Positions 2,546 through 62,130 of a stretch of 64,000 nt of DNA are shown in pieces; position 1 is the stretch's first letter, and every line of letters begins with the position of its first letter. The notes beneath the pieces are model-generated. The model saw only the letters and a list, made by a program, of their open reading frames with translations, was not told the origin of the DNA and did not search any database. Position numbers and translations under genes: made by a program. The stretch comes from Escherichia phage vB_ESM-pEJ01, in the sequence record OP114734.1, one strand, 5' to 3'.

Positions 2546-2900
2546 GCTTACAAATCACATTCTTTACTTTATCAGATTTATCAGCCCAATCCAATAGCCA
2601 TTTTAACGGAAGGATTGAAACAATAAACGGGGCAGCAATCAAAGCAAACATGATACACCGGATAATCAGGAAAGTGCAAGTAACAAAGCTAGCGATACTG
2701 ATCCCGACAAAACAAAATACCATAGAAAACAGAGTAATGATATAGAAAGGCCAGAATACCCACTCCCGCATCTTAACGCCTTTGTATTCCCTGAATTGCT
2801 TAAAATCTACAAACAACTCTCGGATAGACGCGTACAGGACCGAAAAATCATCTTTCATTGCTCTGAATGAGCAATCTTCTATTTTAGAATGACCTAGCAT
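2538..2900 (-). CDS. hypothetical membrane protein
   Basis: Two long hydrophobic segments (IITLFSMVFCFVGISIASFV, IMFALIAAPFIVSIL). Confidence 0.4.
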   Translation of the reverse strand: MLGHSKIEDCSFRAMKDDFSVLYASIRELFVDFKQFREYKGVKMREWVFWPFYIITLFSMVFCFVGISIASFVTCTFLIIRCIMFALIAAPFIVSILPLKWLLDWADKSDKVKNVICKRV

Positions 2901-2902
2901 TA

Positions 2903-3196
2903 TTAACCGCCTTTCATCATTGATACTGGAATTGTTTTCTGATTTGTGTATAATTGGCCTACTTCAATTTTTTCTTGAATCACCACGACGTTACAATATC
3001 CACTGTCTTTAAGTTTTCTGATAATGACTCGCTTTTGTTCGTCGGTGATAGGATTGACTGTTCTCACCAATTCACCGCAAATAATAGCACCATCTTTACA
3101 ATTACCAGTAACTTTCATGCTACGACCGTGAACAACAACCACGTCACCGTAAATCACATTTTCGTCGTCGTATTTGGTAATAACCGTGACCGTCAT
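2903..3196 (-). CDS. hypothetical protein (97 aa)
   Basis: ORF with GAGGGAA RBS before ATG at 3196. Confidence 0.45.
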   Translation of the reverse strand: MTVTVITKYDDENVIYGDVVVVHGRSMKVTGNCKDGAIICGELVRTVNPITDEQKRVIIRKLKDSGYCNVVVIQEKIEVGQLYTNQKTIPVSMMKGG

Positions 3197-3210
3197 AATG
3201 TATTCCCTCT

Positions 3211-3235
3211 AAGAAAGGCCGCGCAAAGCGGCCTA
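3211..3235 (-). terminator. rho-independent terminator
   Basis: GGCCGC-gcaaa-GCGGCC hairpin followed by TTTCTT on minus strand, between ORFs 3242..3574 and 2903..3196. Confidence 0.5.
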
Positions 3236-3241
3236 TGTTGA

Positions 3242-3574
3242 TTATTGTTCTACAGTATAACCGTTGTTTTCAAGCCATGCAATAACAATCTTTTCGCCAA
3301 TTTCATCGAGCATTTCATCAGCGCCATATTCTTTAATGAAAGTCGATGGATCATTATTGCTTACTACGTGCTGGATCACAACATGTTCAGGAATTGCGTC
3401 TAGTAGTTCGCTATGATCATACTCATTAACGATATCTTCAACACTAACATTATTAACCAAATCAACATCATCCATAGTCACAGTAACGCGACCGGACGGA
3501 CGCAATGAATATTGGCTACTTTCAACTTCAACATGTGCACTTTCGCAAGTAACTTTCATATCAACCATAATCAA
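3242..3574 (-). CDS. hypothetical acidic protein (110 aa)
   Basis: ORF immediately downstream of rIIB. Confidence 0.45.
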   Translation of the reverse strand: MIMVDMKVTCESAHVEVESSQYSLRPSGRVTVTMDDVDLVNNVSVEDIVNEYDHSELLDAIPEHVVIQHVVSNNDPSTFIKEYGADEMLDEIGEKIVIAWLENNGYTVEQ

Positions 3575-7952: not shown

Positions 7953-7979
7953 TTATAGAGAATCTCCCTTGTATGTCAA
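7953..7979 (-). promoter_or_regulatory. early-type promoter cassette with GGGAGA/TCTCCC hairpin over -10
   Basis: TTGACA at 7979..7974, TATAAT at 7958..7953, 16-nt spacer. Confidence 0.55.
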
Positions 7980-8539
7980 CTAAAATTTAAAGATGCAAAC
8001 TCCCCGTGATGAATTTTTGCATATTCATCATATGCTCTAGCGGCTTCCTCCTGAGTAGCAAACGATCCTATGTATTTTCTGTATCCGTTTATCCTTATTT
8101 GTGCTTGCCACGGTCTTTTGCTAGATCCTTTGCGATGAGTAACACCATTATATATGCTCGTGCACCCGTCCATTTTCTTTTTATTGTACATGTTTTGTTG
8201 TTGTGTTGCCTCCCGTAAATTTGGTGGATTGTTGTTTTCTGGATTCCCGTCTATGTGGTCTATTACCTTAACCTGTGTTCCATATTCAAGAAACCAGACA
8301 ATTCTATGTACAAGATATGTAGATGTTCTCTTTTTAACCTTATTGTAAACATCTATTGCCAAATGACCGTAATTTAACTTTTTTGTTTTTACTTTATCAC
8401 CGACTCGGTAGAAATATCCCTCTGGTAGACCATTAAAAGACGGACTATTTGTTTTGTGATATAGAACACCTTCCGTGTGTTCAAATCTGCGTTTTAATTC
8501 CTCTTGAATTTCAGTATTCCAAAATTTCGCACTTTTCAT
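7976..8539 (-). CDS. HNH homing endonuclease with C-terminal AP2 DNA-binding domain
   Basis: HNH_3 motif VDHIDGNPENNNPPNLREAT; AP2-like YNGVTHRKGSSKRPWQAQIRINGYRKYIGSFATQEEAARAYD; free-standing between rIIA.1 block and topoisomerase gene. Confidence 0.8.
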   Translation of the reverse strand: MKSAKFWNTEIQEELKRRFEHTEGVLYHKTNSPSFNGLPEGYFYRVGDKVKTKKLNYGHLAIDVYNKVKKRTSTYLVHRIVWFLEYGTQVKVIDHIDGNPENNNPPNLREATQQQNMYNKKKMDGCTSIYNGVTHRKGSSKRPWQAQIRINGYRKYIGSFATQEEAARAYDEYAKIHHGEFASLNFS

Positions 8540-19941: not shown

Positions 19942-19970
19942 ATTTTACTACTTTAATTATTCTATGTCAA
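19942..19970 (-). promoter_or_regulatory. early-type promoter (-35 TTGACA, 17 nt, -10 TAAAAT)
   Basis: Overlaps stop of HNH gene; feeds ORF 19598..19915. Confidence 0.5.
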
Positions 19971-20706
19971 CAAATTTCCAATTTGGAAAGTCTGGACTCA
20001 TACAACGACGCCGAACGGTTCCGCGCTCGTTTCCTAGTACCTTAGATACTTCCGATACAGATTTATAAATCACACCATCAACAAATACAGCCTTTCGGTC
20101 TTTCCTGTTTTGGTTTTTGCTCTTTTCTCTTCTGGCTTCTACGTTATCCGAATCATTCCATTGTCTCTTTGCTGTCTCTCTGGAAGATATTGCCTTTTGT
20201 TCTTTAACAATATCTTTAACGAGTTGTTCTTGTCCTGTTATCTTCGCCCACACATTAACAGACTGGATAGCATTAGCCTCACTCATTCCCCAGCGTTTGC
20301 CGGATATATTCTTACGACGCACGCGTAGAAATTCGTTAAAGACTTCTTCGCATTGGTGCATATAATCACGAAATCCATATTTCTTAGCCCATGCCTCTTT
20401 AATTGCATCAGACATATTTTCGGCAATACGTCTACGCATCCATGCATACTCCTTATTATTGCGACCGTGACTGGTCATGCACATCATACGCGAAGCCATA
20501 ATAAGACCCACATGTTTAGGATACATTTTAGCTAAAAGTAGATGTGCTGTAAAGTGTTCCTCTGGAGTCAATGGAACGAGATTTTCGTGGTCATCGGTTC
20601 CACCCATACAACGTGGTTTAACGTGATGGATCTCTACATATCCGGTCGGCTTCTCGCGGGTTCTTGCTCGTTCAATCAATTTTTTGTAATGTGCTTTGTA
20701 GTTCAT
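19957..20706 (-). CDS. HNH homing endonuclease with C-terminal DNA-binding module
   Basis: HNH motif YVEIHHVKPRCMGGTDDHENLVPLTPEEHFTAH; start set at MNYKAH with GGAGGA RBS; inserted between uvsX and gene 40/41 block. Confidence 0.75.
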   Translation of the reverse strand: MNYKAHYKKLIERARTREKPTGYVEIHHVKPRCMGGTDDHENLVPLTPEEHFTAHLLLAKMYPKHVGLIMASRMMCMTSHGRNNKEYAWMRRRIAENMSDAIKEAWAKKYGFRDYMHQCEEVFNEFLRVRRKNISGKRWGMSEANAIQSVNVWAKITGQEQLVKDIVKEQKAISSRETAKRQWNDSDNVEARREKSKNQNRKDRKAVFVDGVIYKSVSEVSKVLGNERGTVRRRCMSPDFPNWKFVDIE

Positions 20707-20719
20707 GTGATCCTCCATA

Positions 20720-20744
20720 TGAAAAAGGGGCATAACGCCCCTTA
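20720..20744 (-). terminator. rho-independent terminator after uvsX
   Basis: AAGGGGC-ataac-GCCCCTT hairpin followed by TTTTTC on minus strand. Confidence 0.6.
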
Positions 20745-36038: not shown

Positions 36039-36535
36039 TTCTCAGCCTTTAATCTTTCTAGTTCTTCTTCCAGTTCCTTGATCCGTTGGTCGCGTTCAAA
36101 GTCACGCTGTAACTTAGTGGCGAATACTCGTTTAAACTGATTGTAATCATCGATTTTAAACACTTCTTCTTCGCCATAGCGACGCACAGAAACTTCGTAG
36201 TTATTGAAGAATTGTTGCATCATTGCTTCGGATGATAGTTCTGCTGATACTACTTTAAAATATTGATCTTCTGTAGGCGAAAACCAATTACAAGCATAAA
36301 GATAAACCTTTTCATTGTCTGGACACTGGTAAGCCTTACCATCGATTTCAATCACAGAAACATATTCAGGTATACTAGATGAATCAATAGCTAAGACTTT
36401 AAACGCACGGTCCCCGATAAACTCGGAGATCACACGATTCGCATCACTGGTTGCAAATGCTTTACGCGCTTGTTCGTTTTTCCACTGATAGGTCATACCA
36501 ACAACAAACATATTACCATCCTCGCTCTTTACCAA
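36035..36535 (-). CDS. paralogous-family protein, array 1 member D
   Basis: Shares FKV..ID..G.V..IEIDG.Y module and coiled-coil tail with neighbours. Confidence 0.5.
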   Translation of the reverse strand: MVKSEDGNMFVVGMTYQWKNEQARKAFATSDANRVISEFIGDRAFKVLAIDSSSIPEYVSVIEIDGKAYQCPDNEKVYLYACNWFSPTEDQYFKVVSAELSSEAMMQQFFNNYEVSVRRYGEEEVFKIDDYNQFKRVFATKLQRDFERDQRIKELEEELERLKAEK

Positions 36536-37337
36536 TCAAAAATTCAACTTCACGACGTTTAATGTCTTCTTGAAGGTCTTTAATCTTCTGGCGATCTTGC
36601 ATGATTTCATCCATCTTGTCAAGTGCCGCAATGAAATCATCGAAACGTTCAAAGGTTTTACCTTCATTTGCTTCGCCAAATTTAACCATTGTCAGGCCGT
36701 AACGACTACTAAACAGACGTTTCAACTGTCCAACGATTTTAGAATCAGTGGTTATAACTTCCAATTCTTCTACTTCACGAAAGAATTTTCTATCAGAATC
36801 AATAAACCAGCTAGTTCCTTTATGGTCTCTATCTTCGGTTGCGCTCATTAGAGTATGGTCTTTACCATCAATTTCAATTACATCAATTTGCCCACATGGA
36901 CTAACATTTTTAACAGTAAAAGGTCTATAATTTATTGCTCGTGCAATAACATAATTAAGGTTAGATACGTTTTCAGCATAATGGCAGAAGTCGGTCATAG
37001 CATTCGCATCTTTCCAAGTATAAGTTTTACCAACTTCCCATTTCTGGGGAACTTCTTCAACTTCACGAAAGAATTTTCTATCGAATGGACTAAAGAAATA
37101 TGTTGCCGTCCAAATGTCTTTTCCTGTAGCAGTTTTCGCCGTATGATAAACACCGTCTAGCTCTATTGCATAAATCCAACCGTTACCATCGATCTCGATG
37201 ATGGTAAATGGCTTGTCACCAATAGCTGCACTAATATCGCTGTTAAGTGGAGAAAGAACACCTTCTCCGTTAGTAATAAACTCAGTTTTAGCGTTTTCGT
37301 CTTTCCAGGTGTAAGTTTTACCAATTTCCCATTTCAT
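36513..37337 (-). CDS. paralogous-family protein, array 1 member C (internal domain duplication)
   Basis: Contains KWE(I/V)GKTYTWKD...DRKFFREVEE twice. Confidence 0.5.
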   Translation of the reverse strand: MKWEIGKTYTWKDENAKTEFITNGEGVLSPLNSDISAAIGDKPFTIIEIDGNGWIYAIELDGVYHTAKTATGKDIWTATYFFSPFDRKFFREVEEVPQKWEVGKTYTWKDANAMTDFCHYAENVSNLNYVIARAINYRPFTVKNVSPCGQIDVIEIDGKDHTLMSATEDRDHKGTSWFIDSDRKFFREVEELEVITTDSKIVGQLKRLFSSRYGLTMVKFGEANEGKTFERFDDFIAALDKMDEIMQDRQKIKDLQEDIKRREVEFLIGKERGW

Positions 37338-37349
37338 AATATATTCCCC

Positions 37350-37832
37350 TTAACCGATTTTATCAAGTTCGTTTAATGCTTTCTCTGCTTCCTGTATAGC
37401 TTGCACCCTTTCCGGCATTTTGTCAAGAAAATCTTTCAACTCTTCAAAACTGGAGATATGACGCAAGGCGTTAGCACCGATAGCCGCATGTGATTTGCAT
37501 TCAAAGCGGATTTTATAATTATCCATCGCCAACTTGAGAAGATCAATTAATTTAGATTCTTCTGGAATAATAATAATTTCTTCAAATCTGCTACGGTCAT
37601 GATCCAGAAACCAACAAGATAGACCTACATCGGTTGAACTCATATAAGTTCCATCATGAAGATAAACAGATCGCACGTATCCTTTTTTCGCATCAACCGA
37701 CGCAACTTTAAACGGTAATCGCAGATATTTCAAATAATCAACATCATACCATTTAAAAAATTGGTTTGCATCTTTTACATCTTTCCACGCATAGGTCTTA
37801 CCAACTTCCCATTTCATAATATCATCTCTCAT
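37350..37832 (-). CDS. paralogous-family protein, array 1 member B
   Basis: MKWEVGKTYAWKD N-terminus; start probably at 37817. Confidence 0.5.
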   Translation of the reverse strand: MRDDIMKWEVGKTYAWKDVKDANQFFKWYDVDYLKYLRLPFKVASVDAKKGYVRSVYLHDGTYMSSTDVGLSCWFLDHDRSRFEEIIIIPEESKLIDLLKLAMDNYKIRFECKSHAAIGANALRHISSFEELKDFLDKMPERVQAIQEAEKALNELDKIG

Positions 37833-38358
37833 TTTTGATACGTGATTCTAATTGGATCATACGGTCGCGCGTTTGTTTGTATTCTCGGATAGCACCGATC
37901 CGGCTAGGCATACCATCCAGTACGCTCTTAATACCTTCTAGGGTAGTAATTTTGGCAATGCTATTATGTAACCCCATCTTATCGATCAACTGAATGTCGT
38001 AGGCTTCCATAAGCAGACCCAGACGTTCTAAAGTTAGGTCTTCTTCTTTTTCTTTCGATTCTGGAATCTTAGGTTCAATAGTAACTTCGGTAAAGAAACG
38101 ACGCTCACCAGCCCAAAACCACACACCATAACAATTGATAGAAGATTCTTTTAACGTCATCGGCTCGGTATCTTCACCGATAATGGTAATTTCACTAACA
38201 TCACCATCAGCATCAAGTGCTTCTACCTTAAACGAACGACCGTTCAACAGGTCAATAATCATACTGTTAATGGATGACGAAAATTTAGTCAGTTCAGCTT
38301 TTGATATTTCACACTTAATGTTGTAGATCTTACCTACTTCCCATTCCATAATAATCAC
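37822..38358 (-). CDS. paralogous-family protein, array 1 member A
   Basis: MEWEVGKIY..., ERRFFTEV motif, coiled-coil tail. Confidence 0.5.
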   Translation of the reverse strand: MIIMEWEVGKIYNIKCEISKAELTKFSSSINSMIIDLLNGRSFKVEALDADGDVSEITIIGEDTEPMTLKESSINCYGVWFWAGERRFFTEVTIEPKIPESKEKEEDLTLERLGLLMEAYDIQLIDKMGLHNSIAKITTLEGIKSVLDGMPSRIGAIREYKQTRDRMIQLESRIKNER

Positions 38359-38359
38359 C

Positions 38360-38869
38360 TCAAATAATTTTCACTGGAATACTATTAACAATCTTGTATT
38401 GTACTTGATTGTCAGACCCCCGCCACGGCTTCTTCGTTGGCATATCTTTAATATAACGCCCATCGATGAACATGTCAACTGATTCTACAATTTTTCTTTG
38501 CTCATCATTCAATTGGTCAAGGGTATAACCAGACCATAGCCAAATATCTTTATTTGGCATCCATGATTTTACTTCATCGATGATCCGCTGTACACCCTTT
38601 AAATTGCGTTTATACAGTGGATCGCCACCTAAGAATGTTAGCCCCTGAATAAAATCAGGTCTAAGCAGGTCCAGAATCAATCCCATTGTATCATCGGTGA
38701 ATGGTTCCCCGTTCTTAGGATTGAGTAGGCTAGCATTAAAGCAACCATCACATGCGTGTGAACATCCGGTAACGTAAAGGGAGACTCTCACTCCCTCACC
38801 GTTAACCATATCACAATCTTTAATATCGGCATAGCGTAGTTTGCCGTATGTATCAGAACTCATATTCAA
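38360..38869 (-). CDS. nrdG: anaerobic ribonucleotide reductase activating protein (radical SAM)
   Basis: CSHACDGC cluster (CxxxCxxC), size ~T4 NrdG. Confidence 0.85.
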   Translation of the reverse strand: MNMSSDTYGKLRYADIKDCDMVNGEGVRVSLYVTGCSHACDGCFNASLLNPKNGEPFTDDTMGLILDLLRPDFIQGLTFLGGDPLYKRNLKGVQRIIDEVKSWMPNKDIWLWSGYTLDQLNDEQRKIVESVDMFIDGRYIKDMPTKKPWRGSDNQVQYKIVNSIPVKII

Positions 38870-39080: not shown

Positions 39081-39629
39081 TTATTTTAAATTTTTTCGAA
39101 TGTATTCAGACCATTCCTTCCCTGTCATTTCGGACCCGTTCTGGAAACTGAAATATTCATACGGCATCGAGTCAAGATAAAACAGGATCATACATCGCGC
39201 CATATAATACCAATCACGATTAAAGTAAACTACGTTATCACCAGTACCATCAACCCCTTTATCATAACCATCGCGGGTACGGGCGACCCATTGAATAGTA
39301 TCATTTTTCTCGCGGATCGTAACAGGTTCCCAATATCCAGCACATCCAGCATGACCACACGAACAAGTCAGGAAATATTGACCTTTTGCTTTGTTGTCAT
39401 CCCATTCACGATGGATTGGTTCGATCTCGTGAAACAGTGCTAAGCAATCATGATTATGCAACACTGGCTTACCATCAATCAATGCATGGAATGTATACAA
39501 ACGACCAGTAGACAAATAGCTATCCTCACGCTCAACCAGTTCAATAGCAATCTTTTTAGCTCGTTCTTTGTGTCGTTGTGCTTTACGCTTACGGTTTAAT
39601 GATTTCATATTCACCTCACACATTATCAA
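39081..39629 (-). CDS. hypothetical protein with Cys/His cluster (182 aa)
   Basis: CSCGHAGCAGY motif. Confidence 0.4.
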   Translation of the reverse strand: MIMCEVNMKSLNRKRKAQRHKERAKKIAIELVEREDSYLSTGRLYTFHALIDGKPVLHNHDCLALFHEIEPIHREWDDNKAKGQYFLTCSCGHAGCAGYWEPVTIREKNDTIQWVARTRDGYDKGVDGTGDNVVYFNRDWYYMARCMILFYLDSMPYEYFSFQNGSEMTGKEWSEYIRKNLK

Positions 39630-40036
39630 AGGTCGCGATATAGTACATTATGAAAATGAGAACTTGCATTACCAATATTGTAGATAATAAATTCTTCATC
39701 CGGCGCTTGCGCTACAAATTGAGTATGAGCAACCGCCACAACCTTAAAAATACGATCCGTGATCTTGTGTTTAATTTCGGCTCCTACTTCCATAGGAACA
39801 TATTCATGTGTTTCTGTTTCAGTCGCAAAACAGCCATCTTCTTCATAAGCACGAACAAATCGATCGCAATCAGTACGCTTAACAAATTCAAGAGTATACA
39901 ATTCTCGTGAATTGTCGGTATAGACTAATACAGAATTATTCTGATAGCGAATCACATACAGGTTATTATCATCGTCAATTACGCAAAAGCTACGGATTTG
40001 TGTTCCTTCGCCTTTACTCCAGCAGATATTAACCAC
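39626..40036 (-). CDS. hypothetical protein (136 aa, GTG start)
   Basis: AGAGGA RBS before GTG; overlaps ORF 39979..40173. Confidence 0.4.
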   Translation of the reverse strand: MVNICWSKGEGTQIRSFCVIDDDNNLYVIRYQNNSVLVYTDNSRELYTLEFVKRTDCDRFVRAYEEDGCFATETETHEYVPMEVGAEIKHKITDRIFKVVAVAHTQFVAQAPDEEFIIYNIGNASSHFHNVLYRDL

Positions 40037-40173
40037 AGTTCCTCTAATAAAAAACTTTCCTTTAAATTAAAACTAGCCAATGTGCTAGCGTGCATTTTAA
40101 CAACAACACCATCGCCAATTTCCAGTTTACGAAGTTTAACTTCTTTGCTCAGTACACAAAACATCATCATCAT
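39979..40173 (-). CDS. hypothetical protein (64 aa)
   Basis: Has its own PeSL-like promoter and conserved leader CACATCGAAAACAACGAGAGGA before ATG. Confidence 0.4.
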   Translation of the reverse strand: MMMMFCVLSKEVKLRKLEIGDGVVVKMHASTLASFNLKESFLLEELWLISAGVKAKEHKSVAFA

Positions 40174-40202
40174 GTTGTCCTCTCGTTGTTTTCGATGTGA
40201 GC

Positions 40203-40230
40203 ATTATACATTAGCTAATCATGTTGTCAA
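40203..40230 (-). promoter_or_regulatory. early-type promoter (-35 TTGACA, 16 nt, -10 TATAAT)
   Basis: Immediately after nrdD terminator. Confidence 0.5.
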
Positions 40231-40240
40231 CACCCCAAAA

Positions 40241-40268
40241 CGAAAAAGCCGACCCTTTCGGATCGGCT
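40241..40268 (-). terminator. rho-independent terminator after nrdD
   Basis: AGCCGATCC-gaaagg-GTCGGCT hairpin followed by TTTTTCG. Confidence 0.6.
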
Positions 40269-40273
40269 GAAAT

Positions 40274-42136
40274 TTACATGTGCTTAACGCGGTTTACCAT
40301 CTCGGAGTGTTTCCCGTGGTTAAATGGACGCAGATCAACAGATCCAAGATATCCACTAACGCGACGGATAACATTCATCTTTTCCAGATTGTCATTGCCG
40401 CAATCAGGACAAACAAAACCAGACTCGGTTGCTCTCATTTCCTTAGTAGATCCGCATACATGACATACATCAGAAGGAGTATTAACACCGAAGTAGTGCA
40501 ATTTATCCATTGCATAGTCTACTACAGTTTCAAGACCTTTCAGGTTGTTTTTCATGTCTGGGAACTCAACATAAGAGATCATGCCACCGGACGCCAGCCA
40601 GTGATAATCTTTCTCAAAGTCGATTTTCTCAAATGGAGTGACTTTCCGGTCTACGTCAAGGTGGAATGAGTTGGTGTACCAGTCTTTATCGGTAGCACCC
40701 TTAACAATACCAAATTTCTCTCTGTCCAGTCGATTAAATCGATAGCAAAGACTCTCGGCTGGCGTACCGTAAAGACTAAACCCAAGTCCGGTTTCGTCCT
40801 TCCATTTTTCAGTATAATGACGCAAGATCTTAAGAATATGTTTACCGTATCGCTGCGCATCTTCCGAATCAAACGGATGAACACCAAACAGGACGCTCAA
40901 TACCTCATGTAAACCAATATATCCAAGAGAGATACTAGCGCGACCATCTTTCAACACTTCCAAAATTTCATCGTTTTGATGAATACGGAAAAATGCACCT
41001 TCGGTATACAGTACAGGAGCAACATTGGCTTTAGCCCCTTTTAAAGCGTCTACGCGACTCATAAGCGCATCAAAACAAATAGGCAGACGATTCGCTAGCT
41101 CTTGTTCGAATAGCTCAATTCTGCGCATTACAGACTCTTTACCAGCACGACGCGCGGCAATAAGGGCAATACGCGGAAGATTCAGAGTCACAACACCTAA
41201 GTTATTACGTCCGTCTAATACTTCTTCGCCTTTCTCATTATGCCACACACCCAGGAAGCTACGACAACCCATCGGGCTAACCGGAACACTAGATCCAGTG
41301 ATGCTACGGTTATTCTTCGCAGAGATATAATCAGGGTAAAGACGCTTACTCGAACATTCCAATGCAAGTTGCTTAATGTCGTAGTTCGGATCTTCCGGTT
41401 TAAGGTTTAATCCTTCTTCTAAGAACATCACCAGCTTAGGAAACACCGGAGTTATACCGTCTTTACCTAAACCTTTAGTTCGAACTTTCAGGATCGCTTT
41501 CTGAATCAGTTTTTCTTCCCAGCTAGTACCCATACCAAAGGTTAAAGTCACAAAAGGCGTTTGACCGTTGGTGGAGAACAAAGTGTTGATTTCATATTCC
41601 AACGCTTGATACCCGTCTAAAGTTTCTTTTTCTGTCTTCTCTTGTGCATAGAGAGTATCAGCTTTGATTCCGTAGGTTTCGGCATCAGCAAGGTGTTTAT
41701 GATATGTTTTCTCAACGTATGGCGCTAAAACCTGATCGATGTTTGCGATTGTGGTCCCGCCATATTGATGACTTGCCACCTGTGCGATAATTTGAGCGGT
41801 TACAGCACAAGCAACGCCGATTGATTTCGGACTTTCGATTTGTGCGCTACCCAATTTAAAACCATTCTCTAACATGTCTTTGAGATTAACAAGACAGCAG
41901 TTAGTAAACGGCATAGCGGGTGCATAATCCATATCATGATAATGAATGTCACCGTCTACATGCGCTTTATAGATGTGCTCAGGTAACACGGTTTTAGCAA
42001 TCTGTTTAGACACAGCACCAGCAATCAGATCTCGACGTGTCGGGAATGTTCGCGCGTCTTTGTTCGCGTTCTCTTTGCTTACTTCGTTTTCTTTACCCGT
42101 TGCGATCTCTGTAATGTCTTTGATTAGTTTTTCCAT
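40274..42136 (-). CDS. nrdD: anaerobic ribonucleoside-triphosphate reductase
   Basis: 620 aa; C-terminal glycyl radical motif RRVSGYLG and zinc ribbon CHVCG..CPDCG. Confidence 0.9.
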   Translation of the reverse strand: MEKLIKDITEIATGKENEVSKENANKDARTFPTRRDLIAGAVSKQIAKTVLPEHIYKAHVDGDIHYHDMDYAPAMPFTNCCLVNLKDMLENGFKLGSAQIESPKSIGVACAVTAQIIAQVASHQYGGTTIANIDQVLAPYVEKTYHKHLADAETYGIKADTLYAQEKTEKETLDGYQALEYEINTLFSTNGQTPFVTLTFGMGTSWEEKLIQKAILKVRTKGLGKDGITPVFPKLVMFLEEGLNLKPEDPNYDIKQLALECSSKRLYPDYISAKNNRSITGSSVPVSPMGCRSFLGVWHNEKGEEVLDGRNNLGVVTLNLPRIALIAARRAGKESVMRRIELFEQELANRLPICFDALMSRVDALKGAKANVAPVLYTEGAFFRIHQNDEILEVLKDGRASISLGYIGLHEVLSVLFGVHPFDSEDAQRYGKHILKILRHYTEKWKDETGLGFSLYGTPAESLCYRFNRLDREKFGIVKGATDKDWYTNSFHLDVDRKVTPFEKIDFEKDYHWLASGGMISYVEFPDMKNNLKGLETVVDYAMDKLHYFGVNTPSDVCHVCGSTKEMRATESGFVCPDCGNDNLEKMNVIRRVSGYLGSVDLRPFNHGKHSEMVNRVKHM

Positions 42137-42180
42137 TGTATCACCTATGAAAAAGCGGGATTTCTCCCGCTCGTTGATAG

Positions 42181-42675
42181 TTATTTTACCAGTTCTGCTA
42201 ATTCTTTTTCTTTAGCTTCTAGTTCAGCTTTAAGCTGTTTAATCTCTTGTCGCTTCTTATTAGCGGCTTCTTGCTTACTATTTCGGATAACCTGATCTAG
42301 ATACAACTCCCAATCCTGAATATTTTTGATAATGTAACCGTCAACATTAATTGGTCGGAGATTCAGTACAGCTTCCAGTTTAGTTGCAAAAACTTTAATT
42401 GCTGGTGTGAAGTATTCATACTCGTTATCTTCAAACCAATAACCTAGACTTGCATTCTCAATACGAAGATGAAGTTTAAGATCAAGGTCTTTATCTTCGG
42501 TGTAAAGATCTTTCACCTGACCCAGCGAACTAACAACAACTTTAAAACGAATTTTATCTACACCACCAAACACATCAGTAAGTATACCAGCAATTGAGCT
42601 ATTAGCGCAAGATTGGTCGCTGAATGCGTCAAGGTTTTCTTTAGTTACAGTATACCAAACATCTTGTACCCACAT
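42181..42675 (-). CDS. paralogous-family protein, array 2 member H
   Basis: IRFKVVVSSLGQV module and K/E coiled-coil tail. Confidence 0.45.
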   Translation of the reverse strand: MWVQDVWYTVTKENLDAFSDQSCANSSIAGILTDVFGGVDKIRFKVVVSSLGQVKDLYTEDKDLDLKLHLRIENASLGYWFEDNEYEYFTPAIKVFATKLEAVLNLRPINVDGYIIKNIQDWELYLDQVIRNSKQEAANKKRQEIKQLKAELEAKEKELAELVK

Positions 42676-42705
42676 AATATAATCCTCTCATTGTTAAGTG
42701 GGAGT

Positions 42706-42733
42706 ATTATAGCATACTCCCTTCGCATGTCAA
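42706..42733 (-). promoter_or_regulatory. promoter cassette with GGGAGTA/TACTCCC hairpin over -10
   Basis: TTGACA 42733..42728, TATAAT 42711..42706. Confidence 0.55.
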
Positions 42734-43908
42734 GCACTAACTTTTTTCTTTACTGCTTTCACCTTCTGGCGAATTGCTCGAATCTCTTCGATCTCTTTTT
42801 CAGTCTCTTTAACAATTTCTTTGCGATTCTGAATATCTGTATCTAGATTATCATCAAGTTTAGGCAGCATGTCAATCAAGAACTTTTTAAAGTCTTTCAG
42901 GTTTCGGATAACAGCACCTTCACCCATTACCGCCACGCCTACACCATCCGGCAGATCACCAAACAGCTTAACCAGTTCAGACAGATGATCATGATCTTCT
43001 AGTGCTTCTTCCGGTTCAGATGGCAGTTCAACAAAGTTATAACGTTCATCATTGCTGATCAAGTGATACCAGCAAAGCCCGAAAGATTTCGGTGTATATT
43101 CTACACCATCAATTTCAACCGCGTCAACACTTCCATAATCATCTACTTTAGTTACCTTAAATCCTTGTCCCAGCTTTTGAACAATTTCAACAACATGACT
43201 TGATACAGTTTCAGCGGTAAACCAATATGGCAAATTATGCTGATTTGGTTTGTAGCGTTCACCTACTTTAAATCTCTGACCATCCGCTTGCATAGAATGA
43301 AATTGTTGTTTCGTGATTTCCGCGAAGTATTCAAATTCGCTACCGTCAAACAAGCAATTCCATTGATCACAAAAACGATCTGCCTTAACAGTTTCACCTT
43401 TCGCGGTGATCATGGTAGCTGATCCGTGCAATTCTTCTTCAACTAAAAAGCCATATTCGACAAAATCAACAAGTTTCATAGCTTCTTTGTGATCTGGATC
43501 ATGCTCTCCCCAGAATCGCTTAAATTCTTGCAAACCTTCTGGGGTAAACGAATAACATTTACCTTTTTCAAAGTAAGTCGGCATTGCATCCTCTTTCTTG
43601 TTCATCGCTTCGTATGCCTCTTTTGAGATACGTTTAAAGAATTTACGCTCATCGTGCATAATCATAGTAGCCCAATAATAAACGATATCCTCAGCGGAAT
43701 AAACTACATCTCCAGCTTCAATAGTAATAACATGACCGTGGTCATCTTTTTCTAATACTTTAAAGCCCTTTTCTACGATTTCAGCAACCCGAATATGACC
43801 ACGGCGCGAAGCATCGGTCAGAATAATTGAATAGCGAGAAAAGTCTAGAAACTCATCTTTACCGCCTTCACGGAATGCATAGTAATGACCTTCAAAGAAT
43901 TTAGCCAT
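42730..43908 (-). CDS. paralogous-family protein, array 2 member G (three module copies)
   Basis: GFKVLEKDDHGHVITIEAGD.., GFKVTKVDDYGSVDAVEIDG.., ERKFFKRIS. Confidence 0.5.
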   Translation of the reverse strand: MAKFFEGHYYAFREGGKDEFLDFSRYSIILTDASRRGHIRVAEIVEKGFKVLEKDDHGHVITIEAGDVVYSAEDIVYYWATMIMHDERKFFKRISKEAYEAMNKKEDAMPTYFEKGKCYSFTPEGLQEFKRFWGEHDPDHKEAMKLVDFVEYGFLVEEELHGSATMITAKGETVKADRFCDQWNCLFDGSEFEYFAEITKQQFHSMQADGQRFKVGERYKPNQHNLPYWFTAETVSSHVVEIVQKLGQGFKVTKVDDYGSVDAVEIDGVEYTPKSFGLCWYHLISNDERYNFVELPSEPEEALEDHDHLSELVKLFGDLPDGVGVAVMGEGAVIRNLKDFKKFLIDMLPKLDDNLDTDIQNRKEIVKETEKEIEEIRAIRQKVKAVKKKVSA

Positions 43909-43939
43909 AATATAATCCTCTCGTTGTTTAGACGGGAGT

Positions 43940-43968
43940 ATCTTACTACTCCCGTTTCATCATGTCAA
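43940..43968 (-). promoter_or_regulatory. promoter cassette with GGGAGTA/TACTCCC hairpin over -10
   Basis: TTGACA 43968..43963, 17 nt, TAAGAT 43945..43940. Confidence 0.55.
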
Positions 43969-44549
43969 GCGTTAAATGACTTTTGGATCTCTTTCAGTTC
44001 AGCTACTTTATCGGCGCTGAATTTAGCGTAGGTATCATGTCGAATAATTTCACTTTCAAGAAAGGTTTCCAGCCGAGATCTATTTTCAATAAGGAACTCT
44101 TTCAGGTCTTCTGCGTTCTTGATAAAGATTTTATTGTCGGTAATGTCATCTTCAATCGCAAAGGAGATAGAGCGAACTTTACCAAACAAGTTAATCAAAT
44201 CTTCCAGTGATTCTTCTTTCTTAACTGGTTTCATTTCTTCAAACTGCTTTTTAGTGATGCGTTTAAAGTATTTGCGCTCGCTTGCGTCAATCATGATTGA
44301 CGCGCCCTCATAATCATGAGTTTCTACCAAATATACTTTACCCATAACATTAACCGTAAGAACTTTAAAGCCCTTGTGAAGCACACCATACAGGAACGTG
44401 TTATGTTGTGGATAGCGTTTAACAAATTCCTCTGCGGACTCAGCATTACGGAAAGTGTAATAACGACCTCGTTCAAAAACAGCATCATTTGAAGACTTAG
44501 CCGGATACAATTTATACGTTTTCTGTACCATAATATAATCCTCTATCAT
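43965..44549 (-). CDS. paralogous-family protein, array 2 member F
   Basis: GFKVLTVNVMGKVYLVE..ERKYFKRIT. Confidence 0.5.
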   Translation of the reverse strand: MIEDYIMVQKTYKLYPAKSSNDAVFERGRYYTFRNAESAEEFVKRYPQHNTFLYGVLHKGFKVLTVNVMGKVYLVETHDYEGASIMIDASERKYFKRITKKQFEEMKPVKKEESLEDLINLFGKVRSISFAIEDDITDNKIFIKNAEDLKEFLIENRSRLETFLESEIIRHDTYAKFSADKVAELKEIQKSFNA

Positions 44550-44818
44550 TTCACTAATTGAACAGCACGGAACAGAATGCGCTCACACGGAAGCAGCATA
44601 AATTCCCAACGCGGATCAAAGTCTTTAGCGGTGTATGTTTTCCCATCAACCGAGATTTCACTTACATAACCAACAGGTGACACTTTAAGAACAGTAAACC
44701 CATTCTTGATGACTTCGTAGGTATCTTTCACCCCTTCGTATTCATCATCTAAGAAGTCTTTATGTGCTTGCTCAGATTTAAAAACATAGGCAACACCGGA
44801 TTTAAACATCTTACGCAT
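44546..44818 (-). CDS. paralogous-family protein, array 2 member E (single module)
   Basis: GFTVLKVSPVGYVSEISVDGKTY; track start 44878 lies in promoter, ATG MRKMF has AAGGAG. Confidence 0.5.
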   Translation of the reverse strand: MRKMFKSGVAYVFKSEQAHKDFLDDEYEGVKDTYEVIKNGFTVLKVSPVGYVSEISVDGKTYTAKDFDPRWEFMLLPCERILFRAVQLVK

Positions 44819-44849
44819 TGTTGATTCTCCTTCTTGATTAGATGGGAGT

Positions 44850-44878
44850 ATTTTACTACTCCCATTTCTTATTGTCAA
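44850..44878 (-). promoter_or_regulatory. promoter cassette with GGGAGTA/TACTCCC hairpin
   Basis: TTGACA 44878..44873, 17 nt, TAAAAT 44855..44850. Confidence 0.55.
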
Positions 44879-45379: not shown

Positions 45380-45673
45380 TTAACCATTAATCTTGTTTTT
45401 GACTACAAAGGATCTGAACTCATCAAAACCACCTATATAATCACCATTATAGAAAATCTGCGGCATGGTGGCAATAACTTCTACCCCTGCGCGATCCTGA
45501 ATGTCGGCAATGATAGAATCAATCTTTACCGGACGACCGTTTTCGTCTACACCATCATTAACCGGAATGTAGATGTAAGGGATCTTACGCGATTCACAAA
45601 GGCGCTTTGCATTCTGGCAATACTTACAGTTGTAACCTTCAAAACCAAAAATTTCTACCATGTTATACCTCAT
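45380..45673 (-). CDS. nrdC: glutaredoxin (NrdC-like)
   Basis: CKYC active site, TMPQIF..G..IGGFD block as in T4 NrdC. Confidence 0.75.
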   Translation of the reverse strand: MRYNMVEIFGFEGYNCKYCQNAKRLCESRKIPYIYIPVNDGVDENGRPVKIDSIIADIQDRAGVEVIATMPQIFYNGDYIGGFDEFRSFVVKNKING

Positions 45674-46418
45674 TCAGTTCTATATCAAGTTCATTTTCAA
45701 TAATATAGGCATTAACTGCCCGTGCCGCATCATCTTCTGTGTCAAATCTTCCTATATACACACCGCGAACTTTAGCACCGTAATTACCTTGTTTTGGTAC
45801 TTTGTAAACGTATCTATGACGGGAACTTGCTGCTTTTTGGAGCTTCTTGCCATATTCAGACTTTGCATATTCTATATCATCAATCTCGTTTATACAAGAC
45901 CTATCACCAAAATGTTTCAACGCTGCAAGATTATATGCATAAGCCGCACCGATCTCGGAGGGAAAATATCCTAAATGTATAGACTTCCCATCCAACATTA
46001 TTGCACCAGTCCAATAACCTTTATTCTTATTAAACGACACACCTTTATACTTCGAATATGTTTTGCATTTGGTCTTGCTCATATTCATATTATTTTGTTT
46101 GCTTGTCGTCTCTCTAAGGTTTTCAATGCGGCTATTATAACGATCTCGGTCTTTATGATCTATATACTTAGGACAATGACCATGAAACATATGATAGATA
46201 ACACGGTGCATACGTTCGTATCGCTCGCCAGTCCATACAATACGATACCCATCGGGGGTATCACTTCCAGCTAATCCGTTTATAACACCTTTTCGGTGCG
46301 GGTGAATCTTCCACCTAAGAAAACCATCATCATAATAAAACCGTGAATGATATAAATCATACAAACGTTTATCTTCTGGAGTCTTGTGTATAACCTCATA
46401 TTTTAACATTGGTGACAT
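45663..46418 (-). CDS. HNH homing endonuclease with two AP2 domains
   Basis: IDHKDRDRYNSRIENLRETT (HNH_3); YKGVSFNKNKGYWTGAI and YGAKVRGVYIGRFDTEDDAARA (AP2). Confidence 0.8.
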   Translation of the reverse strand: MSPMLKYEVIHKTPEDKRLYDLYHSRFYYDDGFLRWKIHPHRKGVINGLAGSDTPDGYRIVWTGERYERMHRVIYHMFHGHCPKYIDHKDRDRYNSRIENLRETTSKQNNMNMSKTKCKTYSKYKGVSFNKNKGYWTGAIMLDGKSIHLGYFPSEIGAAYAYNLAALKHFGDRSCINEIDDIEYAKSEYGKKLQKAASSRHRYVYKVPKQGNYGAKVRGVYIGRFDTEDDAARAVNAYIIENELDIELNEV

Positions 46419-59810: not shown

Positions 59811-60404
59811 TTAAACGTATTCAGCAACAACATTATGTTTAAAATTACCGCTCCTTTTTGGATTTGGATTTTTCAATCGACTATGTATTAAATTTTTGTT
59901 GTATCCGGTTGCTTTAGACGCTTCGCCAATACTTTGATAAACAACACCATTAACACGAATCGGACGAGACTTATTAAACAGTTTATTCAATCCGGCATCA
60001 TATGCATGGTTTTGGTTTTCTTGCCTCGTTGCGATCTCAAGATTCCAAACACAATTACAAGATTTTACCCCACTTTTATGATTAATTTCAAGACCTTCAC
60101 AATCACCTATAAAGTGTTCAGCAACTAGTCTATGAATATAGCGATATTTCTTACTTTCCCCATCATGCAAGCATACATTATAATAACCATCACCAGCGCG
60201 TTTAGGTCGGAGTAGTTTACCTTTAACACGTTTTATAGTAGGGAACTCACCAAATTGATTTCTCTGGATAAACGGAATCTCGCGGTCTAATGAACGGATT
60301 CGACCATAGTTAGACACTTGATAAAAACTTTCATATCCTTTAATTGGCTTCCATATCTCAGGGATTTCTACACCATCAATAACAACAAGTTTAAATTCTT
60401 CCAT
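59811..60404 (-). CDS. HNH homing endonuclease (NUMOD4-like N-terminus + HNH_3)
   Basis: YQVSNYGRIRSL; HRLVAEHFIGDCEGLEINHKSGVKSCNCVWNLEIATRQENQNH. Confidence 0.8.
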   Translation of the reverse strand: MEEFKLVVIDGVEIPEIWKPIKGYESFYQVSNYGRIRSLDREIPFIQRNQFGEFPTIKRVKGKLLRPKRAGDGYYNVCLHDGESKKYRYIHRLVAEHFIGDCEGLEINHKSGVKSCNCVWNLEIATRQENQNHAYDAGLNKLFNKSRPIRVNGVVYQSIGEASKATGYNKNLIHSRLKNPNPKRSGNFKHNVVAEYV

Positions 60405-60452: not shown

Positions 60453-60866
60453 TTACATAGATTCCGTAAAGGTACGGGTGATAATATCAAGTTGTTGTTC
60501 GCGTGTCAAGGCGTTGAAGCGGGTAGCATAACCACTGATTCGAATTGTAAGCTGCGGGTACTTCTCAGGATGTTCAACCGCATCAAGAAGAGTCTCCCGA
60601 CGCAGTACATTCGCGTTGAGATGATGACCCGCGTTACTATTTACCCCGTTATCAATTGCTAAAGGACGGAAGCTAGTTGTGTGCAGTTCCAGCGAATCGA
60701 CGTCTTCTGCGGTGATCACATGATCTTCTGCGAAAGTTTTACTAACAATTACTTTAGCGCCGATCAGTGCTTTCGGTTCGGATACCAGAATCATAGGCGC
60801 GAAATGTCCACCGATAATAGTACCTTTATGCTCACCTTTCATGATTTGAATTGCTTTAAATTCCAT
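60453..60866 (-). CDS. autonomous glycyl radical cofactor (GrcA/YfiD-like, PFL C-terminal domain)
   Basis: C-terminus [44 protein letters not shown] is nearly the GrcA/PflB glycyl-radical signature (RVSGYAVRFNSLT..). Confidence 0.75.
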
Positions 60867-61555: not shown

Positions 61556-62130
61556 TTATTTTGGATCTGGGAAATTCAATAGAGCATATTCTCCATAAAA
61601 TTTCCTAGCTGCATTATCATAAGCGATTGCAGCTTCGATTTCTGTGTCATATTGTCCAAGAACATGTCTTTGTAGGTTGACCATTATACTAGCTCTCCAT
61701 TTCTTACGCAAATCCTTCCTGTTACACTTACTAACACCCTTATACACACTAGAAAACTTTTAGACTTCTTCTTTCTATTATGTTGATTTTGCGCGTCGGT
61801 TGCCTCCATAAGATTTGGAGGATTGTTATTAGCAGGATTACCGTCAATATGATCAATTAATCTAACTTGCGTCCCATGTTCTAGAAACCAAACAACCCTA
61901 TGCACGAATAGATGAACTCTAGGAAGACCGTCATCTCTACTATGCCAAAATCTAAGATGACCATCTTTATTTGTTCTGACTTTAACTAAATCGCCGTGTT
62001 TATATCTACTCCCTAATGGTCGTCCTTTGATAGCTTTACTATCGACTCTATAATATAAGATACCCTCTATATGAGCATATCTAAGTTTTATCTCGTTTTG
62101 TAGGGATTCATCCCAATATTTAAAAGCCAT
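61556..62130 (-). pseudogene. HNH-AP2 homing endonuclease gene disrupted by frameshift
   Basis: HNH part (61684..62130, VHRVVWFLEHGTQVRLIDHIDGNPANNNPPNL) and AP2 part (61556..61747, YKGVSK..AAIAYDNAARKFYGEYA) lie in different frames and overlap by 64 nt; intact paralogue at 7976..8539. Confidence 0.6.

What the first reader, a model, noticed from the sequence alone, without database searches (positions are those of the whole stretch)
40274..42136. Intron-less nrdD
The anaerobic reductase is a continuous 620-aa ORF ending in RRVSGYLG, with a terminator directly after it. T4 nrdD carries a group I intron with an HNH endonuclease; the corresponding HNH genes here are free-standing instead.
Basis: established knowledge. 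Interest (0 to 1): 0.3.

Follow-up and report, generated by a model that had tools for sequence, protein, structure and literature searches.

The report
Ordinary uninterrupted phage nrdD gene
This is a normal, uninterrupted anaerobic ribonucleotide reductase gene of an RB49-like coliphage; lacking an intron is the usual state for this gene, so the finding is correct but ordinary.

Summary
Window 40274..42136 (minus strand) is one 620-aa ORF, a full-length class III ribonucleotide reductase (NrdD). It is 63.8% identical to spliced T4 NrdD and keeps every key residue. A strong hairpin terminator lies 5 nt after its stop. The window is a Krischvirus (RB49-like) genome, and the gene is 97-99.5% identical to about 55 annotated relatives.

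The gene has no intron. It is colinear with T4 NrdD across the T4 intron site (Tyr181 codon, 41596|41595). Sensitive Rfam scans find no group I intron, while T4 scores 105 bits as a positive control.

The T4 nrdD intron endonuclease, I-TevII, is GIY-YIG, not HNH. None of the window's five free-standing HNH ORFs is a detectable homologue of it.

A better comparator is inside the genus. Phages JSE and phiS carry a 760-nt group I intron with an HNH-type ORF just before the catalytic Cys291 codon (41267|41266). The window has the empty allele there.

Intron-less nrdD is the norm: about 69 of 2,923 phage records with NrdD carry an intron at the T4 site. The terminator plus consensus promoter downstream fits the published PeSL cassette. 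Already known, low interest.

The parts
40274..42136 (-). nrdD: uninterrupted CDS for the class III (anaerobic) ribonucleoside-triphosphate reductase catalytic subunit, 620 aa
   Evidence: ORF list. Pfam NRDD 585 bits. NCBIfam equivalogs above cutoff. PDB T4 NrdD 1h78, E = 2.8e-255. 63.8% aa identity to spliced T4 NrdD.
40343..40366 (-). Glycyl-radical motif RRVSGYLG (residues 591-598); G595 corresponds to T4 G580
   Evidence: Alignment with T4 NrdD. Pfam Gly_radical 81.9 bits. Coordinates.
40400..40465 (-). C-terminal four-cysteine zinc ribbon (C558, C561, C576, C579, matching T4 C543/546/561/564)
   Evidence: alignment; coordinates.
41264..41266 (-). Codon of catalytic Cys291 (T4 Cys290). 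The boundary 41267|41266 is the unoccupied insertion site of the 760-nt JSE/phiS-type group I intron.
   Evidence: A blastn break in JSE falls exactly between nrdD nt 870 and 871. The window sequence is continuous: CCGATGGGT|TGTCGTAGC.
41594..41596 (-). Tyr181 codon (T|AT). The boundary 41596|41595 is the position homologous to the T4 nrdD (sunY) intron insertion site, unoccupied here.
   Evidence: The T4 splice junction was deduced from exon ending in U, intron ending in G, and an intact reading frame. DNA alignment of the junction is; tblastn exon boundaries are.
40237..40268 (-). Intrinsic terminator hairpin (9-bp stem, GAAA loop) plus T-tract, 5 nt after the nrdD stop
   Evidence: -16.6 kcal/mol. 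Annotated as a terminator in GEC-3S.
40203..40230 (-). Perfect sigma-70 consensus promoter (TTGACA-16-TATAAT) just after the terminator. Together they form a PeSL-type cassette that starts the next transcription unit, which leads to nrdG.
   Evidence: 12/12 match. Annotated as a promoter in GEC-3S. PeSL cassettes of RB49/phi1 are described, with nrdD named as an associated gene, in PMC2839356.
42150..42172 (-). Terminator-like hairpin (GAGCGGGA-GAAA-UCCCGCUU plus U-run) between the upstream ORF's stop and the nrdD Shine-Dalgarno and start; likely an attenuator that nrdD transcription must read through
   Evidence: Fold at -17.0 kcal/mol. Annotated as a terminator in GEC-3S. The function is inferred.
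42706..42733 (-). Nearest upstream consensus sigma-70 promoter (12/12, with extended -10 TG); the likely source of nrdD transcripts
   Evidence: Annotated as a promoter in GEC-3S. Inferred, not tested.
38360..38869 (-). nrdG: the radical-SAM activase that partners with NrdD, 1.4 kb downstream and separated from nrdD by three small ORFs
   Evidence: Pfam Fer4_12 148 bits. NCBIfam TIGR02491 NrdG 165.9 bits, cutoff 126.1.

Best explanation
This is the ordinary, functional, uninterrupted nrdD gene of an RB49-like (Krischvirus) coliphage. It encodes the glycyl-radical catalytic subunit of the anaerobic ribonucleotide reductase. Activated by the NrdG radical-SAM protein encoded 1.4 kb downstream, it makes dNTPs for phage DNA synthesis in oxygen-poor hosts. 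The gene is unoccupied at both nrdD intron sites known in T4-like coliphages: the T4/CE1-type site in the Tyr181 codon and the JSE/phiS-type site in front of the Cys291 codon. That is the majority state both in the genus and among phages generally. Transcription most likely starts at the consensus early promoter at 42733..42706 and reads through a hairpin just upstream of the start codon. It ends at the strong hairpin 5 nt after the stop, which together with the adjacent consensus promoter forms a PeSL cassette.

Shown: ORF continuity, homology, residue conservation, absence of intron sequence, and the sequence signals. Inferred: enzymatic activity, promoter and terminator use, and susceptibility to intron homing.
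For: - Continuous 620-aa ORF.
- Full-length NRDD and NrdD equivalog matches.
- Best PDB hit is T4 NrdD, E = 2.8e-255.
- Global alignment to spliced T4 NrdD gives 63.8% identity. Indels are only 1-9 aa and none lies at an intron site. C80, C291, N312, the four Zn cysteines and G595 are conserved.
- Rfam finds no intron in the gene or in the window, while T4 gives 105 bits, CE1 70.6 bits and JSE 27.4 bits.
- 55 of 58 Krischvirus records have the same uninterrupted 1863-nt gene.
- The T4-type intron is in 25 phage records and the CE1-type in 44, out of 2,923 records with NrdD.
- Terminator and promoters. PeSL literature.
- PMC2993671 lists no intron-encoded endonucleases for RB49 and phi1, and says the three intron-borne HEGs are confined to the T-even cluster.
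Against: Nothing argues against the gene being intact. The caveats are these:
- Activity and expression are not tested.
- A terminator-like hairpin sits between the nearest promoter and the start codon, so the level of nrdD transcription is uncertain.
- Rfam's default 'gathering' filters missed a genuine intron in phage CE1. The default negative scan alone would therefore be weak; the conclusion rests on colinearity plus the permissive scans.
Confidence: 0.94

Rival explanations
1. The intron-less state is secondary. An ancestor of this phage carried the JSE-type or T4-type intron and lost it precisely, for example by recombination with a spliced-cDNA-like copy or with an intron-less relative.
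For: Introns are present in two close relatives, JSE and phiS, whose exons are about 98% identical to the window. Gain and loss are therefore both going on in this genus.
Against: Both intron-bearing alleles share three synonymous changes within 9 nt of the insertion site (TGTAGAAGT versus TGTCGTAGC). None of the 55 intron-less records matches the spliced JSE junction (a hand-typed 98-nt query with one or two errors) with fewer than 4 mismatches over the aligned 95 nt, which equals the window-versus-JSE differences in that stretch. The window therefore shows no footprint of a former intron. At the T4 site the window is only 22/30 identical to the T4 exon junction, similar to other intron-less T-even relatives at 23-24/30.
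Confidence: 0.05
2. The gene is interrupted after all, by a short or atypical intervening element (a small ORF-less intron, an intein, or a programmed frameshift) hidden inside the long ORF.
For: None was found. The only formal opening is that default Rfam filters can miss introns.
Against: The ORF translates without stops. It aligns to T4 NrdD with no insertion longer than 9 aa, too short for an intein or an intron. A permissive Rfam scan of 39900..42500 gives only one chance-level hit (17 bits, E = 5.3, on the opposite strand).
Confidence: 0.01

Closest known systems
nrdD of Krischvirus phages (RB49, phi1, GEC-3S, FL38, ECD7 and others)
   Same: Same 1863-nt uninterrupted gene at 97-99.5% DNA identity. 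FL38 differs at 2 of 620 residues. The flanking terminator and promoter signals, as annotated in GEC-3S, are also the same.
   Different: Nothing of substance. This window alone has a 1-nt deletion in a T-run in the ORF just downstream of nrdD.
T4 nrdD (sunY), with its 1033-nt group IA intron encoding I-TevII
   Same: Orthologous enzyme at 63.8% aa identity, with all catalytic, zinc and glycyl-radical residues conserved. The activase nrdG lies downstream in both phages.
   Different: T4 has the intron in the Tyr180 codon, carrying a GIY-YIG endonuclease ORF after the ribozyme core. The window has neither. T4 has the free-standing HNH gene mobC between nrdD and nrdG, while the window has three unrelated small ORFs there. 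T4 nrdD overlaps gene 49, while here it is bracketed by hairpins.
nrdD of Krischvirus JSE and phiS, with a 760-nt group I intron carrying an HNH-type ORF
   Same: Exons are about 98% identical to the window (42 mismatches in 1863 nt) and the genomic context is the same.
   Different: JSE and phiS carry an intron immediately 5' of the catalytic Cys291 codon (exon ends ...GGU, intron ends ...AAUG). Its core aligns with the T4 nrdD intron core. A 173-aa ORF (I-HmuI NUMOD-like above cutoff, HNH_3 just below) is inserted after P6. There are also three synonymous changes in the first 9 nt of exon 2. The window has the empty site.
PeSL (promoter-early stem-loop) cassettes of RB49/phi1 (Arbiol et al. 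2010, PMC2839356)
   Same: A stable stem-loop directly next to a strong sigma-70-like promoter, lying between a stop codon and the next gene's start. The paper names nrdD among the genes associated with PeSLs.
   Different: This particular cassette was not tested for terminator or promoter activity or for recombination. Its stem is GCCGATCC/GGGTCGGC rather than the typical polyG/polyC tract.

Membership tests
Class III anaerobic ribonucleotide reductase catalytic subunit (NrdD) | Full-length match to the NrdD family profiles above curated cutoffs | tested here: met
   Pfam PF13597 585 bits, profile 1-562/562. NCBIfam NF006732 880.6 bits versus cutoff 657, and TIGR02487 581.5 bits versus cutoff 326.
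Class III anaerobic ribonucleotide reductase catalytic subunit (NrdD) | C-terminal glycyl-radical motif RVxGY with the radical glycine (T4 G580) | tested here: met
   RRVSGYLG at residues 591-598; G595 aligns with T4 G580. Pfam Gly_radical 81.9 bits.
Class III anaerobic ribonucleotide reductase catalytic subunit (NrdD) | Active-site cysteines and asparagine (T4 C79, C290, N311) and the C-terminal Cys4 zinc site. The residue roles come from my own knowledge of the T4 NrdD structures. | tested here: met
   C80, C291, N312 and C558/C561/C576/C579 all align. The closest solved structure is T4 NrdD, 1h78.
Class III anaerobic ribonucleotide reductase catalytic subunit (NrdD) | A cognate radical-SAM activase NrdG encoded nearby | tested here: met
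   38360..38869 (-) matches TIGR02491 NrdG at 165.9 bits, cutoff 126.1, and Fer4_12.
Class III anaerobic ribonucleotide reductase catalytic subunit (NrdD) | Oxygen-sensitive reduction of NTPs to dNTPs | not testable with these tools
   Needs an enzyme assay.
Group I intron-containing nrdD, T4 (sunY) / CE1 type | About 1 kb insertion in the Tyr180/181 codon with a group I ribozyme core (Rfam RF00028) | tested here: not met
   The window sequence is continuous at 41596|41595. There is no RF00028 hit, while the controls score 105 bits for T4 and 70.6 bits for CE1.
Group I intron-containing nrdD, T4 (sunY) / CE1 type | Intron-borne GIY-YIG endonuclease (I-TevII or its 56%-identical CE1 homologue) | tested here: not met
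   tblastn of I-TevII against the whole window gives a best E of 0.13.
Group I intron-containing nrdD, JSE/phiS type | 760-nt intron with an HNH-type ORF inserted immediately before the catalytic Cys codon | tested here: not met
   The window is continuous at 41267|41266. The closest window relative of the JSE ORF is a free-standing gene at 59811..60404, with 33% identity over 66 aa and E = 2e-4.
PeSL regulatory cassette (RB49/phi1) | An intergenic stem-loop adjacent to a strong sigma-70-like early promoter, upstream of a Shine-Dalgarno sequence and start codon | tested here: met
   Hairpin at 40268..40247 and a 12/12 consensus promoter at 40230..40203. Definition from PMC2839356.
PeSL regulatory cassette (RB49/phi1) | Demonstrated terminator or promoter activity, or PeSL-mediated recombination (mini-circles) | not testable with these tools
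   Needs reporter fusions or inverse PCR on infected cells.

The most novel reading that the evidence does not exclude
The window's nrdD is a naive, cleavable homing site for the JSE/phiS-type intron, whose HNH-type endonuclease has not been characterised. On this reading, the three synonymous changes next to the insertion site in the intron-bearing alleles (TGTAGAAGT versus TGTCGTAGC) mark the endonuclease's target and immunity determinants. The genus would then be caught early in an intron invasion: 2 of about 57 phages, with the intron placed at the catalytic cysteine codon.
Probability: 0.4. Interest if true: 0.2.

Novelty: already known. Interest (0 to 1): 0.08.

Why it matters
It matters little in itself. 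An uninterrupted nrdD is what almost every phage with this gene has, and this exact gene is already annotated in dozens of RB49-like genomes.

The check is useful in three ways:
- It corrects a factual slip: I-TevII is GIY-YIG, not HNH.
- It points to the proper comparator, the JSE/phiS intron at the catalytic cysteine codon.
- It shows that Rfam's default filters can miss ORF-bearing phage introns, so 'no Rfam hit' should not be taken alone as proof that a gene lacks an intron.

Tried and rejected
1. I looked for a hidden intron or intein. Rfam was run in gathering mode and in permissive mode on the gene and on the whole window. These returned only chance hits: a group II fragment at 17 bits and an S15 leader at 25.5 bits, both below cutoff. 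This reading is rejected.

2. I tested whether any window ORF is an I-TevII homologue displaced from an intron. There is none.

3. I tried to judge whether I-TevII could cut the window's site by comparing the 30 bp around the insertion site. The window is 22/30 identical to the T4 exon junction, but naturally intron-less Tequatrovirus and Mosigvirus alleles are only 23-24/30. Identity alone says nothing about cleavability, so I dropped the argument that the site is 'too diverged'.

4. I tried to find the published I-TevII recognition sequence in the held literature. It was not found. The 30-bp span I used comes from memory of REBASE and Loizos et al. 1996 and is not verified here.

5. The RB49 genome paper (PMC135041) is not held.

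6. Petrov et al. 2010 mention a putative JSE intron but place it in gene 43. I could not reconcile that with the nrdD intron seen here and did not check JSE gene 43.

Full report
**What is there**

The minus strand of 40274..42136 carries one ORF of 620 aa, from ATG at 42136 to TAA at 40276..40274.
- It matches Pfam NRDD over the whole profile (585 bits) and Gly_radical.
- It matches the NCBIfam NrdD equivalogs well above their cutoffs (NF006732 880.6 vs 657; TIGR02487 581.5 vs 326).
- Its closest solved structure is T4 NrdD (1h78, E = 2.8e-255).
- The phrase 'ending in RRVSGYLG' is loose. That glycyl-radical motif is residues 591-598, and 22 residues follow it.

The terminator is real. A 9-bp GC-rich stem with a GAAA loop and a T-tract sits at 40268..40237 (-), starting 5 nt after the stop, with a fold energy of -16.6 kcal/mol.

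**Where the window comes from**

Megablast places the gene in Krischvirus, the RB49-like 'pseudo-T-even' coliphages. 58 records match at 97-99.5% identity, and FL38 is closest, with 2 amino-acid differences. In GEC-3S the same gene, terminator and flanking promoters are already annotated.

**The requested test: alignment with T4 around the intron site**

I fetched the T4 locus.
- The T4 gene spans 2851 nt and encodes a 605-aa protein, so the intron is 1033 nt.
- Only one junction satisfies group I rules (exon ending in U, intron ending in G) and also restores ...FQAYE-Y-EVNTLF.... That junction places the intron after the first base of the Tyr180 codon.
- tblastn of the window protein against T4 splits at exactly this point, with window residues 6-180 matching exon 1 and 182-619 matching exon 2.
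- The window DNA is continuous across the homologous position, Tyr181 T|AT, between 41596 and 41595.
- The global protein alignment gives 63.8% identity. The only indels are 1-9 aa long and none is near the site.
- C80, C291, N312, the four zinc cysteines and G595 are all conserved.

**Rfam controls**

- Rfam detects the T4 intron at 105 bits.
- It finds nothing in the window in gathering mode.
- A permissive scan of the gene returns only a 17-bit chance hit at E = 5.3.
- A permissive scan of the whole window returns no intron.
- One caution emerged. Gathering mode missed a genuine 70.6-bit intron in phage CE1 that the permissive mode found.
- The negative result therefore rests mainly on colinearity, with the permissive scans in support.

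- The T4 nrdD intron endonuclease is I-TevII, a GIY-YIG enzyme. The evidence is the T4 RefSeq note, Table 1 of PMC2988022, and Pfam, which gives SegE_GIY-YIG, NUMOD1 and NUMOD3 with no HNH. All three Pfam hits are weak and below their cutoffs.
- The HNH intron enzyme of T-even phages is I-TevIII, in nrdB.
- No window sequence resembles I-TevII (best E = 0.13).
- The window does contain five free-standing HNH-family ORFs, each lying between complete genes:
  - 7976..8539 (HNH_3 + AP2)
  - 19957..20733 (mobB-like HNH + I-TevI-type DNA-binding domain)
  - 45663..46418 (HNH_3 + AP2, between nrdC and dam)
  - 59811..60404 (NUMOD4 + HNH_3)
  - 61684..62130 (HNH_3, apparently frameshifted from its AP2 domain at 61556..61747)
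- These ORFs are free-standing, but they are not counterparts of the T4 nrdD intron ORF.

**A better comparator inside the genus**

Among the 58 Krischvirus records, 55 have the uninterrupted 1863-nt gene. The exceptions are JSE (2 records) and phiS.
- In JSE, 760 nt are inserted exactly between nrdD nt 870 and 871, between Gly290 and the catalytic Cys291 codon.
- The upstream exon ends ...CCGAUGGGU and the insert ends ...AAUAAUG.
- The 5' 75 nt and 3' 140 nt of the insert align base for base with the P3-P9 core of the T4 nrdD intron, including stem changes that keep pairing, such as GGGTC/GACCC to GGATC/GATCC.
- Rfam gives 27.4 bits, E = 1e-4, below the gathering score because a 522-nt ORF interrupts the core.
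- That ORF (173 aa) has an I-HmuI NUMOD-like domain (32.3 bits, above cutoff) and an HNH_3 match just below cutoff (22.0 vs 24.8).
- phiS has the same 760-nt intron at 737/760 identity.

So an nrdD intron with an HNH-type endonuclease does exist, but in JSE and phiS rather than T4, and at a different site. The window carries the empty allele (CCGATGGGT|TGTCGTAGC, 41267|41266).

Both intron-bearing alleles share three synonymous changes in the first 9 nt of exon 2 (TGTAGAAGT). Mismatches to the window are concentrated in the 50 nt after the site, at 5-6 compared with 0-1 in the upstream bins. No intron-less record matches the spliced JSE junction with fewer than 4 mismatches over the aligned 95 nt, which equals the window-versus-JSE differences there. 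That query was typed by hand and contained one or two errors. This is the usual signature of endonuclease self-immunity or co-conversion, and it argues that the window never held this intron.

The JSE ORF's nearest relative in the window is the free-standing gene at 59811..60404. The match is only 33% over 66 aa (E = 2e-4), so it is a family member, not an orthologue.

**How unusual is an intron-less nrdD?**

It is not unusual. tblastn finds NrdD in 2,923 phage records.
- The T4-type intron occurs in 25 of them, mostly T4 isolates plus a few other Tequatrovirus genomes.
- A diverged variant at the same site occurs in 44. This CE1 type has an endonuclease 56% identical to I-TevII.

Together that is about 2.4%. 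PMC2993671 states that the three intron-borne endonucleases are confined to the T-even cluster, and lists none for RB49 and phi1.

**Transcription context (inferred)**

- The terminator after nrdD is followed at once by a perfect TTGACA-16-TATAAT promoter at 40230..40203.
- Hairpin plus strong early promoter is the PeSL cassette described for RB49 and phi1, in a paper that names nrdD as a PeSL-associated gene (PMC2839356).
- Upstream, a second hairpin (42172..42153 plus a U-run, -17.0 kcal/mol) sits between the preceding ORF's stop and the nrdD Shine-Dalgarno sequence (annotated as a terminator in GEC-3S).
- The nearest promoter is the consensus one at 42733..42706. nrdD transcripts therefore probably read through that hairpin.
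- nrdG (38360..38869) lies in the next unit.

**Verdict**

Everything here is already known and annotated, so interest is low.

The only mildly interesting reading is that this gene is a naive target for the JSE/phiS intron. A co-infection cross would test that.

Noticed in passing
L007 (phage JSE NC_012740) 2494..3253; L009 + L008 (phage phiS PP449093, across the record origin): A 760-nt group I intron sits immediately before the catalytic Cys codon of nrdD in two Krischvirus phages. It carries a 173-aa ORF with an I-HmuI NUMOD-like domain and a sub-cutoff HNH_3 match. GenBank annotates it only as a split nrdD plus 'homing endonuclease'. The first ~70 nt are about 90% identical to sequences inside nrdD of phi92-like and rV5-like phages, where nrdD is also annotated as split.
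   Followed up: partly
L003 (phage vB_EcoM_CE1 ON229909) 1991..3070: A second lineage of nrdD intron occupies the T4 insertion site. Its GIY-YIG ORF is 56% identical to I-TevII, and it is present in 44 phage records. Rfam 'gathering' mode missed it, although it scores 70.6 bits in permissive mode. This is a caution for intron surveys that rely on default filters.
   Followed up: partly
window 40049..40054 (T-run on the minus strand), within ORFs 39626..40036 and 39979..40173: The gene just downstream of nrdD (phrog_14838, about 180 aa in relatives) is frameshifted here by a 1-nt deletion in a homopolymer: T6 in the window versus T7 in FL38 and GEC-3S. It could be a real pseudogene or a homopolymer sequencing error.
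   Followed up: partly
window 61556..62130 (-): An HNH_3 ORF (61684..62130) and an AP2-like ORF (61556..61747) overlap in different reading frames. Together they look like a frameshifted, decaying HNH-AP2 homing endonuclease gene. The AP2 assignment is by eye, from its resemblance to the AP2 domains of 7976..8539 and 45663..46418, and was not run through Pfam.
   Followed up: no
window 60453..60866 (-): A 137-aa ORF has a C-terminal glycyl-radical domain. It resembles the autonomous glycyl radical cofactor GrcA/YfiD (Pfam Gly_radical 58.7 bits; TIGR04365 115.6 bits, below its cutoff of 170). It is flanked by HNH endonuclease genes at 59811..60404 and 61684..62130.
   Followed up: no
window 36513..38358 and 42181..44878 (-): nrdD and nrdG are embedded in a run of paralogous small proteins that share a repeated motif (W-E-V-G-K-T-Y-x-W-K-D ... 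ERKFF). They hit PHROG families labelled 'goF mRNA metabolism modulator' or unknown function (phrog_8944, 5347, 622). Some ORFs contain two or three copies of the module.
   Followed up: no
window 42150..42172 (-): A terminator-like hairpin lies only about 13 nt upstream of the nrdD start codon, with no promoter in between. nrdD expression therefore seems to depend on read-through. The consensus terminator scan did not list it, but GEC-3S annotates it as a terminator.
   Followed up: partly
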